A DNA stretch of 64,000 nucleotides from an uncultured SAR86 cluster bacterium (GTDB taxonomy: Bacteria > Pseudomonadota > Gammaproteobacteria > Magnimaribacterales > D2472): the NCBI GenBank assembly GCA_905181645.1, contig CAJIYN010000002.1:261785-325784 (forward strand). Reading direction: 5' to 3'. A program made the position numbers and the translations under genes. The notes beneath the pieces are model-generated. The model was given only the letters and a program-made list of their open reading frames with translations. It made no database searches and was not told the DNA's origin. Shown here piece after piece: positions 5,342-36,401 of the stretch (its first letter is position 1; every line of letters starts with the position of its first letter).

Positions 5342-6139
5342 CTAGCCTAAGTTATGACCACCTAACTTAACTACACCGCCATCACAGGTAATAGTCTCTC
5401 CTACAGTAAACGCGCCGGCTCTTGAGCATAAAAATATTGCTAAACCTGCCATATCCTGAGGAGTACCAATTCTTTTTCTAGGGTTTCTTTTAGCAATCTC
5501 GCTGTAGTCATGAGCAACAGCAGCACCTAGCATATTGCTTGGAAATGGTCCTGGGGCTATTCCATTTACTAGAATATTTTCGTCAATTAATCTTGCAGCA
5601 AGATGCCTTGTTAAATGATGGACAGCTGCTTTAGATGCGCCATATGAATAAGTTTCAAATGCTGCAACATTCATTCCATCTATCGAACCAATGTTAATAA
5701 TCCTTGAAGGATCATCTGGTGTTCCATTTATTCTTAATAATGGAGCTAGCTCTTGAGTTAAGAAGAAGATACTTTTAACATTTAAATCCATCACTTTATC
5801 CCAGCCACCTTCAGAAAAAGCTCCAAAAGGCTCAGCCCATGCTGCTCCTGCATTATTGATTAAAAAATCAATATGCTCTTCTTTATCCTTAATTTCATCA
5901 GCAAAAGCCTTAATACCCTCTAGAGTACTAAGATCACTTGCAATTGAAATACATTCTCCACCATATGTATTACTTAACTCATCAGCTTTTAAATGAAGCT
6001 CTCGCTCTTTTCTTGCAGTTATATAAACTTTTACACCATTGGCAAGAAAACCTGCGGCTATCATTTCTCCAATACCTCTTGAACCTCCGGATATAACAGC
6101 GACTTTACCTTCAATACCAAATAGGTCATTTATTTTCAT
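5342..6139 (-). CDS. short-chain dehydrogenase/reductase (SDR)
   Basis: GGSRGIG cofactor motif, NNAG, YGASKAA (YxxxK). I place the start at the internal ATG (MKINDLFG..., 6139) because the longer ORF adds an AT-rich, non-conserved leader. Confidence 0.85.
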   Translation of the reverse strand: MKINDLFGIEGKVAVISGGSRGIGEMIAAGFLANGVKVYITARKERELHLKADELSNTYGGECISIASDLSTLEGIKAFADEIKDKEEHIDFLINNAGAAWAEPFGAFSEGGWDKVMDLNVKSIFFLTQELAPLLRINGTPDDPSRIINIGSIDGMNVAAFETYSYGASKAAVHHLTRHLAARLIDENILVNGIAPGPFPSNMLGAAVAHDYSEIAKRNPRKRIGTPQDMAGLAIFLCSRAGAFTVGETITCDGGVVKLGGHNLG

Positions 6140-6277
6140 TTGAAAACTCCTAAGAAATAATAAATTTAAATAATTATATATATTTTTTATATAAATAAAA
6201 AAATCGATTGATTGAAGCAAATAAAGAAAAATATCTAGATAAGTGTTTGATATTACAATCCAATGTAAAATGTTAAA

Positions 6278-7228
6278 ATGGATTTATTTACAAGTGCTGC
6301 GTGGCTCACCTTATCTCTGACTCTTCTGATATGGGGAGCTAATAAATTTATTGATAGTGCCTCCTCTATTGCAGGGAAATTGGGTATAAGTGATTTTATT
6401 ATCGGATTGAGTGTTATCGCCTTGGGAACTTCTTTTCCAGAAATATTTGTTGGAATATCATCTATTGTTAACAATAATGAAGAGCTTGCACTTGGTGCTA
6501 TTGTTGGATCCAATATTTCTAATGTTGCATTAATTTTTGGTGTTTCATGTATTGGTTATACTGCTGCAATAAATCCATCTTCGAATAAAAATTTTGTTGC
6601 TCTTGCGATGAAGTGTCATTATTGCTATTTATGCCCTTAGCGACCTAAATATTAGTCAGCTTGATTCTTTATTGCTTCTTTTAGTTCTTGTAGAATATGC
6701 ATTTCAGTCTTTAAATCTGAAACTATTTTTTTATAATTAAAATAAAGTGTAGATGATGCAACTTTTTTAAATCTTTTTACTTTTCTTGTTATTGGTCTGA
6801 TTGCTCTTGTAATTGGTTCAAATTATGCAGTTATTCATGGAGAAAAAATTGCCTTATTGATGGGAATACCGAAATTAATAGTGGGTCTTACGGTTCTAGC
6901 TATAGGAACAAGCTTGCCTGAGCTTGCTGTAACGATAAGCGCTCTAGTTAAGAAGAAGAATCAAATGGTGCTTGGAAATATAATTGGTTCAAATGTTTTA
7001 AATATTGCAGTTGTAATGCCTATTTTGGGTCTATTCTCAGATCAAACTTATGATGCCTCTATAATGACAAGAGACATGATTGTAATGTCTTTTACAACTC
7101 TGGTATTTATTCTTATAGCTTTAAGCTTTAACTATAAAAATATATCTACCAATGTGTATCGATTCATAGGAGTTGCTCTTGTAACTGGCTATGTTATTTA
7201 TATTGCAGTTCTAAGCGGACTTCTTTAG
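6278..7228 (+). CDS. Ca2+/Na+ antiporter (CaCA/YrbG family), frameshifted in the middle
   Basis: Both alpha-repeats are present (GLSVIALGTSFPE and GLTVLAIGTSLPE). Region 6600-6860 reads as membrane helices only after 2-3 frame changes. Confidence 0.8.
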
Positions 7229-29262: not shown

Positions 29263-31984
<2,722 letters not shown>

Positions 31985-32030
31985 AATATATCTCTGAAAA
32001 AACTTGTTTTTAAAGTTGAAAAAACGTACT

Positions 32031-32605
32031 TTATCTGATATGGGAGATCATTTGTTTAGTTAAAGGGAGTCTGTTTCCGTCACAAATGCTCGCATGGAAG
32101 TTTTCACTAAACTGTGTTGCAAAATCTAACATTAAATTAACTGTAAGAATGGCATCATCAACATCATTAAGATCAGCCACAAGCAAAATAGCATGGGAAC
32201 TAGTGTCTGTATCAAAAGTTCCCGGCTTGAGTGCATTAGCTACTCTAAAAATCTCTTTGTTATTATTTGTATAAGAAAAATATCCATTACGAAGTTTCGC
32301 ATTATAGTTCGCTAAAAATCCAAATAGTTGGTCCATCGCATACAAAGAACCATCCATCGAAATTAGATTAAAGACAATCAACTCTTGCTCATAATCCTGA
32401 GAATCTTTAGATTTTTCTGAGAAATTAAAAGATGATTGAGAGCGACGTTCAGCCTCACTTTAAATCTTTTAAATCATCAGGAATTTCTTCAATTTTAACT
32501 TTTAAATCATTTAAAGCTAGCAATTTTTTTAAGAAAAAAGAAAGTAATAACTAAAAATAGTATGATCGAAAGACCAATTAAGTATATATCTGAATTCGCC
32601 TGCAT
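32031..32605 (-). CDS. zipA: cell division protein ZipA (short, frameshifted)
   Basis: N-terminal TM MQANSDIYLIGLSIILFLVITFFF. C-terminal FtsZ-binding domain-like ORF 32031-32381. Conserved smc-zipA-ligA order. Confidence 0.7.
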
Positions 32606-35582
32606 TTAATCTGAATTAGCTAACTCAAGTGCTTCATTAACATCGACTGAAACGAGTCTTGAAACGCCTGCTTCTTGCATAGTAATACCCATAAGATGAT
32701 CGCTTGCTTCCATCGATATTTTATTATGGGTAATAAAAATAAATTGAACTCTATCCGACATTTCCTCAACCAAGTTACAAAATCTTGTTACATTAGCATC
32801 ATCTAGCGGAGCATCAACCTCATCAACATACAAAATGGTGCTGGATTCAATTTAAAGATCGCAAACACCATGGCAATCGCGTTAAAGCCTTCTCTCCACC
32901 TGATAGTTGTGAGATAGATGCATTCTTTTTACCTGGCGGTCTTGCCATCAGAACAACACCACCATTTAAAGTGTCGTCATCTTGAAGGGTTAATTCAGCA
33001 AATCCACCTCCAAAAAGAATTGGAAAAACTTCTTTTAATCTGTTATTGACTGCATCAAAGCTATCTTTAAATCTTGATTTTGTTTCAACATCAATTTTCT
33101 TAATAGCTCCAGTTAGCTTATCCAATGCTTCGGTAAGTTCATTGTATTGCTCTTCTAATTTCTTACCTCTTATAGATTCTTCTGCAATCTCGTCAGGAGC
33201 AGCAAGATTAATTGCGCCAAGTCTAATAATTTTAGCCTGAATATCTGTAAGTTGATCTTCGATATCTTTAATAACAAAATCTTCATAATCTTCATAATTT
33301 ATATCTTCTATATTGATTCCAGATTTCTTTATTCTTGCATTAGCATTTTCTAAATTAATCTCATAGGTCTTAAGTTCTAGTTTTATATTGGTAACTTTTT
33401 CAGAAATAGCTCTTAGGTCTAATTCAGCAATGGATCTTTTATTTTCAAGATCTCGAAGCTCTTGATCAACTTTAGATTGCTCTTGTCTAATATTTACAAG
33501 CACTCCTTCGGCAGAAGAGCTTTTTTGCACAAGCTCAGCAATACTTTGCTCTAATTTTTGTTTTTTACTTTCAGTTTCAGTAATTATTTTAGATAGATCA
33601 TTTTGTCTTGTTAAATATTCATCAGGTGAAGCAAGGTTAATAGAGCCTAGAGCTGAAATACTTTCCTGAATTTTTTCTAACGAACCTTCTAGCTCTAATA
33701 AATTCATATCTTTAAACTCAGAGGAGTTAAGCTCAGCTGGATTAATTCCTTCTTTAGTTAAGGCGTGAGAGGCATTCTCTAGATTTACTTCAAAAGTCCT
33801 TAATTCTAGCTTTAATGCATTTATTTGTGCTTCAAGAGTCCTTAAGTCAGCTGCTGCAACAGAGCGCTTATTTTCCATTTCTCTTATAAGATCATCTGCT
33901 TGTGTTCGCTTGCCTCTAAATTCCTCTAACTCAATCTCAATAGTTGATTTGCTTTGAACTAATTCACCTAACTCTCTTTCGGTTATAGACTTTTTCTCAG
34001 CATTATCTTTAAGAAGTTCAGATAAGCTATTTTGTCTATTAAGGTACTCATCAGTTAGAGATTTAGATTGAGCTGAAGCAATATTTAATATTTGAGTTAA
34101 TTGATCTTTTAACTCAATAGCTTTTTGATAGACTCCATCACTTCCAGAACCCATAGCTTTGAGCGTATCAATAATCATATCTAATAAATTAATAGCTTTT
34201 TCTTTAGGACTTAAATTATCAATATTAGCTTCTTCTTCTAGTGCGTTTGCATAACTCTTTTTAGCCTTCTCAAGATCTATTTTGCTTTGAACCTCAATCT
34301 TATTTATATTTCTAAGATCAGCTTCATGCATGGCTATATTTGAACTAATTGAAGATGCGGAAGATCTGGCTGCCTCAAATCCGGATGCAACTGAAGCATA
34401 GCTTTCTTTTACTTCTGTTAATCTTGATTGCTGCAAATCAAGCTCAGCGGTTTTTTCTGCAATACCTAACTCTAGTGGTGATATTTTTAAATTAAGTTCT
34501 GCTTTTTTATCTAAAGCTTCTAATGCTTTTAAAATAGATATATTTAACTTTAATTCTTTAATATATTTTTTTGATTCAAAAGTTGATTCTTTTTCTATAG
34601 CTTTTGCATAACTCTCTTTAGCTCTTTCTATATCTGATTTGCTTTGAATAAGTGTCTTAGTTTCATTTTGAAGGTCGGCTTCTTGCCTAGCTATATCTGC
34701 TCCTACTGCATAAAAGTTCTTTTGAGCTTCGTCATAAGATGCCCTTACAGACTCATGTTCAGTTCTATATTTATCTATCTGTGATTGCTTGGTATTAGCT
34801 TCTGCATCCTTAATAGTTTGATCTCTAAGAGTTACATCTAATTTTTTCTGCAATGCATCTCTATTGTTTTTAGCTTCAAGGGAAAATAATATAGCTACTT
34901 TTAATTCATTTTCTTTTTCTTCAGCTTTGAGTTGATTATATTTTTCTGCAGCTTTTGCTTGCCCTTCTAGACGACATCAGCAATGACACGCTTTCGTCCT
35001 TACTCGAGATAAGTTTTCTTTAGTTTTCTTAATTCTGCTCTCAGTCTCTCTTCGTCTTTCTCTATATTTAGATACTCCAGCAGCTTCTTCAATATGCGCT
35101 CTTAACTCTTCAGGTTTTGCACTTACTAAATTTGAAACCATACCTTGTTCAATAATGGCATAGCTATTAGGTCCTAAGCCAGTTCCAAGAAACAAATCCT
35201 GAACATCCTTACGTCGACACTTAGTGCTATTTATAAAATATGTTGACTGACCATCTCTAGTCATAACCCTTTTAATGGATATCTCATTAAAAGAAGCATA
35301 TTCACCACCAATCTTTCCACTTGAATTATCAAATAGAAGCTCAATACTACATTGACCAGAAGCCTTTCTATTTTCTGAACCATTGAAGATGACATCTGAC
35401 ATAGAGTCGCCTCTAAGGTTCTTAGCAGATAGCTCTCCGAGGACCCATTTAACAGCATCAATTACATTAGATTTTCCACAACCATTTGGACCAACAACAG
35501 CCACTAAATTTGTAGGAAAAGAGATCCTCGTGCTGTCCACGAAGCTTTTGAAACCAGCCAGTTTAATATGTTTAAGCTGCAT
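32606..35582 (-). CDS. smc: chromosome segregation protein SMC (3 frame segments; no recognisable hinge)
   Basis: Walker [10 protein letters not shown], signature LSGGEKALT, Walker B/D-loop [11 protein letters not shown], and about 650 aa of coiled coil in between. Confidence 0.85.
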
Positions 35583-35653: not shown

Positions 35654-36401
35654 TTACCCCAAATAATGCTTTAGCTGGTTAAAAAATTTAGGGAATATAG
35701 ATGAAGAAAAACTCATACTATTTTGACAATTTACTAGGGAATTTAGAACAATATCCTCATCATTAATCAAAGCTGAAGCTAAATCAAAACCAGGAATTAG
35801 TGCATCCTGATTTGTAATAGAAATACTCATTATTTTTGAATCTTCTGATTGTATTTGTGCAATTGGAACAGCTGGACCCTCATTTTACAGACGTATCAAC
35901 TTGAAGACTTAAATAACTACTCGAACCTGCTGTAATAGTCATTGGTAAAGTCTGAGCTAAAGTAAGGTCTGGAAATTTTTTATCTCTAAGAATACTGTAT
36001 AAAGCATAAAAACGAATTTGTAGGTCTGCATCTTTAAAAATTGGCTCTGCAAATTCTACAAGCTGCTCAGCTGTAATTAAGCTATTGTTGTTGATAGCAA
36101 ATAAAATAATCTCTTCTAACCAAAGAATCTTTTTATCATCCTCAATAGATAGACTAAAATCATCAAAATATTTATCTTGAAGCTTGGTATTTTCATACAC
36201 AGCGTCCTTTAACTTATCTGACAGCATTTGCTCATGAACAGACCCAAGGATGGAAAACTTACTGATAAAACCAAAAAGAGCTAAGCCTAATACCATGAAA
36301 GAAAAACTAAAAACAAAGGCTTTATTGGAGGATTCTCTTGCAAGCAAAAAGCCAGCTACTGGAAAAAATGCTAAAAGCATTATTAGATAAAAAATTATCA
36401 T
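35654..36401 (-). CDS. ccmI: cytochrome c biogenesis protein CcmI/CycH-like (frameshift near 35880)
   Basis: Last gene of the ccm operon. Two N-terminal TM helices then a soluble helical region; start overlaps ccmH. Confidence 0.6.

What the first reader, a model, noticed from the sequence alone, without database searches (positions are those of the whole stretch)
34134..34157. SMC with no recognisable hinge: a Gly/Ser loop sits at the coiled-coil midpoint
Joining the three smc fragments gives about 990 aa, against about 1150-1200 for canonical bacterial SMC. Both head halves are normal (GPNGCGKSN; LSGGEKALT; DEVDAPLD). The 668-codon middle ORF is uninterrupted, so nothing is hidden by frameshifts there. 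I can find no hinge-like sequence in it: no Gly-rich dimerisation motifs and no ..GRATFLPL..-type block. The region between the heads is about 650 aa, which equals two normal arms. At its arithmetic midpoint is [17 protein letters not shown]. The size deficit of about 170 aa matches the size of a hinge domain.
Either this lineage has an SMC whose arms fold back through a simple loop, or the hinge-coding segment was lost in assembly, as in the other patch and deletion events in this window. A loop-only apex would require dimerisation and DNA entry or exit to work differently.
Basis: partly seen in the sequence, partly recalled or inferred. Interest (0 to 1): 0.55.

Follow-up and report, generated by a model that had tools for sequence, protein, structure and literature searches.

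The report
Naturally hinge-less SMC of SAR86 bacteria
The chromosome-organising SMC protein of the abundant marine SAR86 bacteria really has no hinge domain: its two long arms turn back through a short helical cap, and the arms come in two discrete lengths, which makes it a natural test of what the hinge and arm length are for.

Summary
The smc gene (window 32606-35582, minus strand) reconstructs to 992 aa. It has normal ATPase heads and no hinge: Pfam SMC_hinge is absent at E<=10, and a profile comparison with canonical hinges gives 0.4% probability. It is not an assembly loss. More than 200 intact orthologue clusters from SAR86 single-cell genomes, MAGs and Tara/JGI/ENA metagenomes have the same architecture, under strong purifying selection (dN/dS 0.03). 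The breaks in this window are local sequence errors or lesions in divergent, indel-rich blocks.

The "170-aa deficit = hinge" arithmetic is coincidental. About 500 aa (hinge plus distal arms) are missing relative to canonical SMC, as the 727/732-aa SAR86 forms show. The 995/996-aa form has one extra repeat in each arm (120 + 143 aa). That duplication arose once, yet long and short forms interleave on the gene tree.

The gene is the positional orthologue of canonical smc (ccm-smc-zipA-ligA).

The cap helices have an unusually broad hydrophobic seam. I infer cap-to-cap dimerisation in place of the hinge; this is not shown.

A 2025 paper already reported abundant oceanic "hinge-less SMC", attributed to Actinomycetes.

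The parts
32606..35582 (-). smc gene of a SAR86 (Magnimaribacterales) bacterium. It is the hinge-less long form, 992 aa after correcting the breaks; intact orthologues are 996 aa.
   Evidence: ORFs; reconstruction; 95% identical intact orthologue P0001 and more than 100 others; TIGR02168 scores 828 bits against a cut-off of 567; synteny ccmF-ccmH-x-smc-zipA-ligA.
35469..35492 (-). Walker A motif (GPNGCGKS)
   Evidence: invariant in 120 orthologues
34976..35002 (-). Garbled patch with an in-frame TGA (34977-34979). It lacks 9 nt relative to orthologues. This is break 1 of the gene.
34488..34844 (-). N-arm repeat unit, copy 1 (residues 250-369 in orthologue numbering). It contains a compensated frameshift patch at 34562-34577.
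   Evidence: Dot-plot offset 120; family-averaged diagonal score; DNA repeat D1 at 73% identity; absent from the 727/732-aa forms.
34170..34487 (-). N-arm repeat unit, copy 2 (residues 370-475). It runs into apex helix 1.
34155..34226 (-). Conserved helix break NLSPKE (457-462) followed by apex cap helix 1 (463-480)
   Evidence: AF2 secondary structure; LSPxEKA invariant across SAR86; hydrophobic e/g positions 0.64.
34137..34154 (-). Apex loop MGSGSD (481-486), the point where the chain reverses.
   Evidence: AF2; least conserved and indel-prone segment.
34068..34136 (-). Apex cap helix 2 (487-509), ending in the conserved QSK break
33648..34076 (-). C-arm repeat unit, copy 1 (507-649). It includes a second joint-like [12 protein letters not shown] motif.
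   Evidence: Offset-143 diagonal; absent from the short forms; C1 copies monophyletic at 99%.
33219..33647 (-). C-arm repeat unit, copy 2 (650-792), head-proximal. It includes the joint motif [11 protein letters not shown].
   Evidence: colinear with canonical SMC from residue 656.
32880..32906 (-). ABC signature motif (LSGGEKALT)
32825..32887 (-). Break 2: indels at 32886, 32878, 32874 and 32827 relative to an intact orthologue, giving a net -2 frameshift
32801..32824 (-). Walker B / D-loop (DEVDAPLD)

Best explanation
This is the genuine, functional SMC (condensin) orthologue of the SAR86 / Magnimaribacterales lineage. Its hinge domain and the distal halves of both arms (about 500 aa of canonical SMC) are replaced by a ~50-aa helix-loop-helix cap.

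Shown:
- The heads, the head-proximal arms and the joint are canonical and colinear with hinge-bearing relatives.
- The arms form one antiparallel coiled-coil hairpin that reverses at a short variable loop, encoded at 34137-34154.
- The core form is 727/732 aa. The 995/996-aa form in this window carries one extra repeat unit in each arm (120 aa N-arm, 143 aa C-arm), which brings arm length to about that of canonical Smc.
- The duplication arose once, but long and short forms are interleaved on the gene tree.
- The three-ORF fragmentation in this window is a local sequence defect, not a property of the gene.

Inferred:
- The protein still works as an ATP-driven SMC dimer.
- Because it has no hinge toroid and no zinc hook, the two subunits are held together at the far end by cap-to-cap packing of the two hairpin tips into a four-helix bundle. 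This would resemble RecN's apical helices, or the engineered B. subtilis Smc in which the hinge was swapped for a simple dimerisation module.
- DNA entry and exit would then have to occur at the head/kleisin end.
For: Orthology:
- TIGR02168 scores 828 bits against a cut-off of 567.
- hhalign gives q1-335 = t1-335 and q388-727 = t834-1173 against 40 canonical SMCs.
- Best PDB matches are bacterial Smc heads, at E = 3e-103.
- The ccmF-ccmH-smc-zipA-ligA order is conserved with Porticoccus, Microbulbifer and others whose smc is 1160-1170 aa and carries a hinge.

Hinge absent. No Cys in the arms of 234 of 235 proteins and no CxxC.

Real and functional:
- More than 200 clusters, including one with 960 members.
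- Contigs of up to 1.0 Mb, and SAR86-labelled SAGs.
- dN/dS 0.032 overall, 0.06 for the cap.

Hairpin: AF2 and Foldseek.

Repeats and the two length classes.

Single origin with interleaving:
- C1 copies monophyletic at 99% and N1 copies at 92%.
- Clade A, which mixes long and short forms, has 100% support.
- 995b + 732b has 96% support.
- All-long and all-short groupings each get 0%.

Cap as an extra interface:
- e/g heptad positions are hydrophobic at 0.64 and 0.48, against 0.14 +/- 0.13 in 55 arm windows.
- Large hydrophobic residues make up 0.35-0.38 of the cap helices, against 0.21-0.29 in the long arm helices.
- Motifs at the base of the cap are invariant.

Precedent that a hinge can be replaced: the functional Smc(Zh) chimera (PMC5344682). 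RecN dimerises through apical helices (PMC4255302).
Against: - No dimer model could be computed, so cap-cap dimerisation rests on hydrophobic-seam statistics and analogy only.
- Overall cap conservation (0.68-0.70) is no higher than that of the arms (0.57-0.72). The loop tolerates a 5-aa deletion.
- ScpA and ScpB were not found in the window or in the ~20-kb SAR86 loci held. They could not be searched genome-wide, so a kleisin partner is unverified.
- In this particular window the gene is broken, so a real strain-specific pseudogene cannot be fully excluded.
- The trees are NJ on one gene. Recombination between lineages could mimic repeated length switching.
Confidence: 0.8

Rival explanations
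1. Apex does not dimerise. The hairpin tip is a passive cap, and two SMC subunits are joined only through ATP-engaged heads and a kleisin, or by zipping of the arms along their length. The complex would be open-ended tweezers rather than a closed ring, and it would hold DNA only in a head/kleisin compartment.
For: The loop is variable and tolerates indels, and the cap is no more conserved than the arms. No dimerisation domain was detected by Pfam, NCBIfam or the PDB.
Against: The hydrophobic e/g seam of both cap helices is 2.6-3.8 SD above arm windows. The LSPxEKA and QSK motifs at the cap base are invariant. Every other characterised SMC-superfamily protein with long arms has an apical dimerisation device (PMC10586767; PMC4255302).
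Confidence: 0.3
2. Assembly artefact: a hinge-coding segment of about 500 nt was dropped from this assembly.
For: The window is visibly error-ridden: a stop codon, frameshifts, and mosaic blocks of identity.
Against: The same hinge-less architecture is found in more than 200 independent protein clusters and in 12 GTDB species genomes, including single-cell genomes. The 1.4 kb around the apex is 100% identical to an intact contig. The defects lie in the head-coding parts, not at the apex.
Confidence: 0.01
3. Strain-specific pseudogene: in the organism behind this window, smc (with zipA and ligA) is really decaying.
For: One in-frame stop, two frameshift sites and two scrambled patches in smc. 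Neighbouring zipA, ligA and the ccmI-like gene are also broken.
Against: ligA and zipA are normally essential. All breaks fall in blocks that are 82-88% identical and indel-rich, alternating with 100% identical blocks; this is typical of a chimeric or low-quality consensus. Orthologues are under dN/dS 0.03.
Confidence: 0.07
4. Paralogue with another job: the gene is an SMC-like repair or defence ATPase (RecN/Rad50/Lamassu-like), and the true condensin is encoded elsewhere.
For: It lacks the hinge, as Rad50, RecN and LmuB do. Complete SAR86 genomes could not be searched for a second SMC, MukB or MksB.
Against: It passes the SMC equivalog model, while RecN scores 18 bits against a cut-off of 408 and Rad50 models score 29-69 bits against cut-offs of 700-1087. 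It sits in the ancestral smc slot between ccm and zipA-ligA. It has no CxxC. The 2025 survey found no co-occurrence of its hinge-less variants with regular SMC in GORG-Tropics single-cell genomes (PMC12153180); whether that cluster is this one is unresolved.
Confidence: 0.05

Closest known systems
Canonical bacterial Smc (Smc-ScpAB condensin; NCBIfam TIGR02168, Pfam SMC_N + SMC_hinge)
   Same: The ATPase head halves and all motifs match. The head-proximal coiled coil and the joint (LGxINLxAP) are colinear and about 45% identical. The genomic slot is the same (ccm-smc-zipA-ligA). Arm length in the long form is comparable.
   Different: There is no hinge domain. The distal arms are not homologous to canonical distal arms; they are built from an internal repeat of the proximal arm. 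The apex is a 47-aa helical hairpin. There are two discrete length classes (727/732 and 995/996 aa).
Oceanic 'hinge-less SMC' cluster of Tara OM-RGC (Environ Microbiome 2025, PMC12153180)
   Same: SMC heads plus a coiled coil, no hinge, no CxxC. The cluster is monophyletic, very abundant in surface-ocean metagenomes, and not paired with a regular SMC in single-cell genomes. P0001 also occurs in Tara data.
   Different: That paper attributes the cluster to Actinomycetes. Here the genomes are SAR86 Gammaproteobacteria (record titles, zipA synteny). Whether it is the same cluster could not be tested. The paper does not describe the arm repeats, the two length classes, the cap or the orthologous position.
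Engineered B. subtilis Smc variants (Burmann et al. 2017, PMC5344682): Smc(Zh), with the hinge replaced by a Rad50 zinc hook, and Mini-Smc
   Same: They show that an Smc can function with a simple apical dimeriser in place of the hinge, and that only particular arm lengths work (steps of about 100 aa). The SAR86 forms differ by one block per arm (120/143 aa).
   Different: Those are artificial constructs that still carry a dedicated dimerisation domain (hook or hinge). The SAR86 protein is natural and has neither.
RecN
   Same: An SMC-superfamily ATPase with no hinge and no zinc hook. Its dimer interface lies in the apical helices of the coiled coil (PMC4255302).
   Different: RecN has a much shorter coiled coil and no kleisin, and acts in DSB repair. 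The SAR86 protein scores 18 bits against a cut-off of 408 on the RecN model.
Rad50/SbcC, archaeal ASRP/ClsN, Lamassu LmuB
   Same: Head plus antiparallel coiled coil, without an SMC hinge.
   Different: These dimerise through a CxxC zinc hook (PMC9389158, PMC10586767). SAR86 SMC arms contain no cysteine, and the heads are SMC-type, not Rad50-type.

Membership tests
Bacterial SMC (TIGR02168 / Smc-ScpAB) | Split ABC ATPase head with Walker A, Q-loop, signature, Walker B/D-loop and H-loop | tested here: met
   Pfam SMC_N at both ends. Motifs located in the window and invariant in 120 orthologues.
Bacterial SMC (TIGR02168 / Smc-ScpAB) | Whole-protein score above the curated equivalog cut-off | tested here: met
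   P0001 scores 828 bits and P0029 861 bits, against a cut-off of 567.
Bacterial SMC (TIGR02168 / Smc-ScpAB) | Long intramolecular antiparallel coiled-coil arm with a joint near the head | tested here: met
   AF2 helices 171-480 and 487-861, with breaks at the joint motif. Fragment pLDDT 89.5. Best PDB matches are Smc coiled-coil segments.
Bacterial SMC (TIGR02168 / Smc-ScpAB) | Central hinge dimerisation domain (Pfam PF06470) | tested here: not met
   No hit at E<=10. hhalign probability 0.4%. Relatives P0125, P0126 and P0135 do hit it.
Bacterial SMC (TIGR02168 / Smc-ScpAB) | Orthologous genomic position | tested here: met
   ccmF-ccmH-(x)-smc-zipA-ligA in SAR86. ccmF, ccmH and ligA flank hinge-bearing smc in Porticoccus, Microbulbifer, Gilvimarinus and Halieaceae.
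Bacterial SMC (TIGR02168 / Smc-ScpAB) | Kleisin ScpA and KITE ScpB partners in the genome | tested here: inconclusive
   tblastn with Marinobacter ScpA/ScpB and motif scans found nothing in the window or in 16 SAR86 loci. That is under 5% of a genome, and whole SAR86 genomes were not searchable.
Rad50/SbcC/ASRP/LmuB (zinc-hook coiled-coil ATPases) | CxxC zinc hook at the coiled-coil apex | tested here: not met
   0 of 235 SAR86 SMCs have CxxC in the arms, and 234 have no Cys there at all.
RecN | Score on the RecN equivalog model (TIGR00634); short coiled coil | tested here: not met
   17.9 bits against a cut-off of 407.85. The arms are 190-340 aa, not about 100 aa.
Oceanic hinge-less SMC cluster (PMC12153180) | SMC heads, coiled coil, no hinge, no CxxC, abundant in ocean metagenomes | tested here: met
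   (Tara, JGI and ENA sources; one cluster has 960 members).
Oceanic hinge-less SMC cluster (PMC12153180) | Sequence identity with the published cluster 9; Actinomycetes origin | not testable with these tools
   The paper's sequences are not held. The genomes here are labelled SAR86 / Gammaproteobacteria and carry zipA, which contradicts an actinobacterial origin for this clade.

The most novel reading that the evidence does not exclude
SAR86 Smc is a natural hinge-free condensin. Its two subunits are joined at the far end only by a four-helix bundle of two 47-aa hairpin caps. Its arms have switched at least twice between two quantised lengths, by coordinated gain or loss of one repeat module in each arm. 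It would thus be an evolutionary replay of the engineered Mini-Smc / hinge-swap experiments. It would imply that neither a hinge toroid nor hinge-DNA contacts are required for SMC function, and that arm length is selected in discrete steps.
Probability: 0.35. Interest if true: 0.85.

Novelty: new variant of a known kind. Interest (0 to 1): 0.68.

Why it matters
The hinge is treated as a defining and essential part of SMC proteins. It is the constitutive dimerisation site, a DNA-binding site, and in some models a DNA gate.

An abundant free-living lineage keeps an otherwise orthodox Smc without it, under strong purifying selection. This gives a natural system for asking which SMC activities really need a hinge: loading, loop extrusion, or DNA entrapment.

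The two discrete arm-length classes differ by exactly one module per arm and appear to have interconverted more than once. They are an independent, evolutionary line of evidence for the quantised arm-length rule that was inferred from B. subtilis engineering.

A SAR86 isolate (HIMB1674) now exists, and heterologous complementation is feasible, so these questions can be tested directly.

The analysis also bears on the taxonomic attribution of hinge-less oceanic SMCs. This clade is from SAR86 Gammaproteobacteria, whereas the hinge-less cluster published in 2025 was assigned to Actinomycetes; whether the two are the same cluster could not be tested.

Tried and rejected
1. A profile search with the 98-aa apex module (A3) returned only 65-167-aa fragments and no full-length proteins. 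It was useless for surveying length variants and cost one capped search.

2. The idea that apex helix 2 is a third copy of the joint helix, so that the long form arose by nested insertion of a whole hairpin, was rejected. The offset-143 similarity starts only at residue ~507, and the offset-286 diagonal is at background.

3. I tried to find ScpA/ScpB. Motif scans and tblastn with Marinobacter ScpA/ScpB (extracted from L073) found nothing in the window or the SAR86 loci. Whole-genome searching was not possible with the remaining caps.

4. The full-length AF2 model has poorly predicted heads (pLDDT below 50), because the MSA is shallow (63-99% identity). Its Foldseek hits are generic SMC complexes with low TM scores. 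Only the arm and apex parts were used.

5. PDB sequence search with the apex profile gave only marginal hits to designed helical repeats (E = 0.013).

6. Supplements of the SAR86 isolate paper hold no mention of SMC or ScpAB.

7. A Biopython bootstrap run timed out and was redone with numpy distances.

8. P0176 (990 aa) and P0229 (1003 aa) looked like further hinge-less candidates by length, but both have a hinge with shorter arms.
Full report
**The observation.** On the minus strand the window carries three consecutive smc ORFs: 34977-35582, 32847-34853 and 32606-32833.
- The first break is an in-frame TGA inside a garbled patch, not a frameshift.
- The second break is a net -2 frameshift caused by four small indels.
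- A third, compensated frameshift sits at 34562-34577.

Joining the pieces gives 992 aa. Pfam finds SMC_N on both ends and no SMC_hinge in the 668-aa middle ORF.

**Is it real or an assembly loss?** A search of 5.8 billion proteins with the corrected sequence returned more than 120 intact orthologue clusters of 995-996 aa at 63-95% identity and 100% coverage. None carries PF06470. They come from NCBI, JGI, ENA, Logan and Tara, on contigs of up to 1.0 Mb.

Four of these orthologues were re-scanned at E<=10 and still show no hinge. The nearest non-SAR86 relatives (1150-1180 aa) do have one. A profile-profile comparison of the apex module with the hinge columns of 40 canonical SMCs gives 0.4% probability.

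At the DNA level, window 33100-34499 and 34600-34899 are 100% identical to an intact orthologous contig. The head-coding flanks are only 82-90% identical and carry all the indels. The hinge was therefore not lost in assembly. The breaks are local defects of this sequence.

**Whose gene is it?** A scan of GTDB species genomes places the close relatives in the SAR86 cluster: SAGs AG-325-C22, AG-349-N21, AG-893-O10 and others, plus several MAGs.

The gene order ccmF-ccmG-ccmH-(261-aa gene)-smc-zipA-ligA is shared by all SAR86 loci. ccmF, ccmH and ligA also flank the hinge-bearing smc of Porticoccus, Microbulbifer, Gilvimarinus and Halieaceae. So this is the positional orthologue of canonical smc.
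- It passes the NCBIfam SMC equivalog (828 bits against a cut-off of 567) and fails the RecN and Rad50 models by a wide margin.
- Its best PDB relatives are bacterial Smc heads, at E = 3e-103.
- dN/dS between two intact orthologues is 0.032 overall, 0.03-0.05 in the arms and 0.06 in the apex cap.

**Anatomy of the apex.** AlphaFold2 on the 996-aa orthologue (120-sequence alignment) predicts poorly resolved heads but confident arms. The predicted elements, in order, are:
- helices 171-334
- a break at 335-341
- helix 342-456
- a break at 457-462 (NLSPKE)
- helix 463-480
- a loop at 481-486 (MGSGSD)
- helix 487-509
- a break at 510-512 (SKS)
- the C-arm, with breaks at 615-631, 651-656, 758-774 and 794-799

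A 240-aa fragment translated from the window itself (33801-34520) gives pLDDT 89.5 and pTM 0.62, with the same single loop. Its best PDB match is the antiparallel coiled-coil segment of Pyrococcus Smc (5xg2, TM 0.59). B. subtilis Smc arm fragments and chemoreceptor hairpins follow. There is no globular domain between the arms.

The loop is the least conserved part of the protein. It is 5 aa shorter, with a proline, in the 727-aa forms. The arms contain no cysteine in 234 of 235 proteins, which excludes a zinc hook.

**What was actually lost and gained.** The GTDB loci revealed a second, shorter class of intact SAR86 SMCs of 727 or 732 aa. This class is widespread: 19 clusters of the 727-aa form, one with 960 members on more than 150 contigs.

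Alignment shows that the short forms lack exactly one 120-aa block in the N-arm and one 143-aa block in the C-arm, while sharing the apex module. These blocks are internal tandem repeats of the long form:
- Residues 250-355 resemble 370-475.
- Residues 507-665 resemble 650-808.
- Both similarities lie far above background on family-averaged diagonals, and the N-arm pair is still 73% identical over 124 nt.

Against canonical SMC, the short form aligns colinearly over residues 1-335 and 388-727 (canonical 1-335 and 834-1173). About 500 canonical residues, the hinge plus both distal arm halves, correspond to only ~52 residues.

**History of the two forms.** On NJ trees of 709-718 shared columns:
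- SAR86 SMCs are monophyletic (100%).
- The 727 forms branch first.
- Long and short forms interleave. One clade joins long P0317/P0319 with short L009/L016 (100%). Another joins the 995 group with the 732 group L010-L015 (96%).
- Monophyly of all long forms, or of all short forms, is never recovered.

In trees of the repeat units, the distal C copies of all long forms are monophyletic (99%), as are the proximal N copies (92%). So the duplication happened once.

The simplest reading is one coordinated elongation followed by at least two coordinated reversions. The alternative is transfer of the central cassette by recombination. I could not separate these.

The step (120/143 aa per arm) is of the order of the ~100-aa periodicity in permitted Smc arm lengths reported by Burmann et al. 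2017 (PMC5344682).

**How it probably works.** *Shown:* an orthodox ATPase head, neck and joint; a hairpin arm; no hinge; no hook.

*Inferred:* the protein still acts as a dimeric SMC, and something must replace hinge dimerisation.

The two cap helices are unusual. Their e/g heptad positions are hydrophobic (0.64 and 0.48), against 0.14 +/- 0.13 (maximum 0.50) in 55 windows of the arms. Their content of large hydrophobic residues is 0.35-0.38, against 0.21-0.29 in the long arm helices. The motifs at the base of the cap (LSPxEKA and QSK) are invariant across all SAR86 forms.

A hydrophobic seam this wide is what a helix needs in order to pack against more than one partner. I therefore favour a cap-to-cap four-helix bundle as the dimerisation device. 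This is analogous to RecN's apical helices (PMC4255302) and to the functional B. subtilis Smc in which the hinge was replaced by a Rad50 hook (PMC5344682).

The main rival is that the tip is passive and the dimer is held only at the heads and kleisin. Whether ScpAB exists in SAR86 could not be established.

**Prior knowledge.** No paper in the library links SAR86 with SMC, and the SAR86 isolate paper does not mention it.

However, a 2025 paper (PMC12153180) describes a small, monophyletic and very abundant cluster of "hinge-less" SMC variants in Tara OM-RGC. These lack CxxC and do not co-occur with regular SMC in GORG-Tropics single-cell genomes. The paper attributes them to Actinomycetes.

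That cluster may be the clade described here, which would make the taxonomic attribution wrong. It may instead be a second, convergent case. Either way, the bare observation of hinge-less oceanic SMCs is not new. The following are not in that report: the SAR86 assignment, positional orthology, the cap, the arm repeats, the two length classes and their interleaved distribution.

**Verdict.** The assembly-loss alternative is refuted.

It is a real and functionally important variant of a known family. It has a partly published precedent, and a mechanism that is inferred but directly testable.

Noticed in passing
window 22700-45500: Relative to an intact SAR86 contig (L001), the window alternates between 500-nt bins of 100% nucleotide identity and bins of 82-88% identity that are rich in indels. 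All gene breaks fall in the divergent blocks. This suggests a chimeric or low-quality consensus of several SAR86 strains, or a recombination mosaic.
   Followed up: partly
window 30875-32600 and 35654-36401: The neighbours of smc are also fragmented. ligA is split into three ORFs (30875-31615, 31575-31760, 31793-31984). zipA retains only its C-terminal ORF (32031-32381). The 261-aa ccmI-like gene upstream of smc is split (35880-36401 and 35654-35830).
   Followed up: partly
P0317 (protein): This long-form SAR86 SMC of 1024 aa carries an exact 29-aa tandem duplication in the N-terminal head ([29 protein letters not shown] twice). It is probably an assembly artefact. Its heads resemble the 732-aa lineage L009/L016.
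   Followed up: partly
P0009 (protein): A 977-aa variant of the long form lacks 18 aa within the distal C-arm repeat. It comes from a single contig, so it is unclear whether it is real.
   Followed up: no
L059, L063, L072, L073, L076, L079, L084 (about 2-5 kb upstream of smc): In Marinobacter and Halomonadaceae genomes the cluster trpS-scpA-scpB-rluB lies just upstream of smc (in L073: scpA 5611-6444, scpB 6441-7103). SAR86 loci have the ccm operon there instead.
   Followed up: partly
proteins P0271-P0294: A profile of the apex module retrieved only 65-167-aa fragments. Some lie on contigs of 0.06-1.4 Mb, so smc is split into small ORFs in other public assemblies too.
   Followed up: no
window 33648-33720 and 33198-33272: The long form carries a second copy of the joint-like motif ([12 protein letters not shown], residues 649-660) at mid-arm. 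It lies opposite the N-arm break ENLTPKE (335-341). This creates a duplicated discontinuity that could act as an elbow-like flexible point.
   Followed up: no
window 32606-32833 vs L009: The C-terminal head segment of the window ([18 protein letters not shown]...) resembles the 732-aa lineage L009/P0317 more than the 996-aa lineage, even though the window's central region is 100% identical to the latter. This is further evidence of mosaicism within the gene.
   Followed up: no
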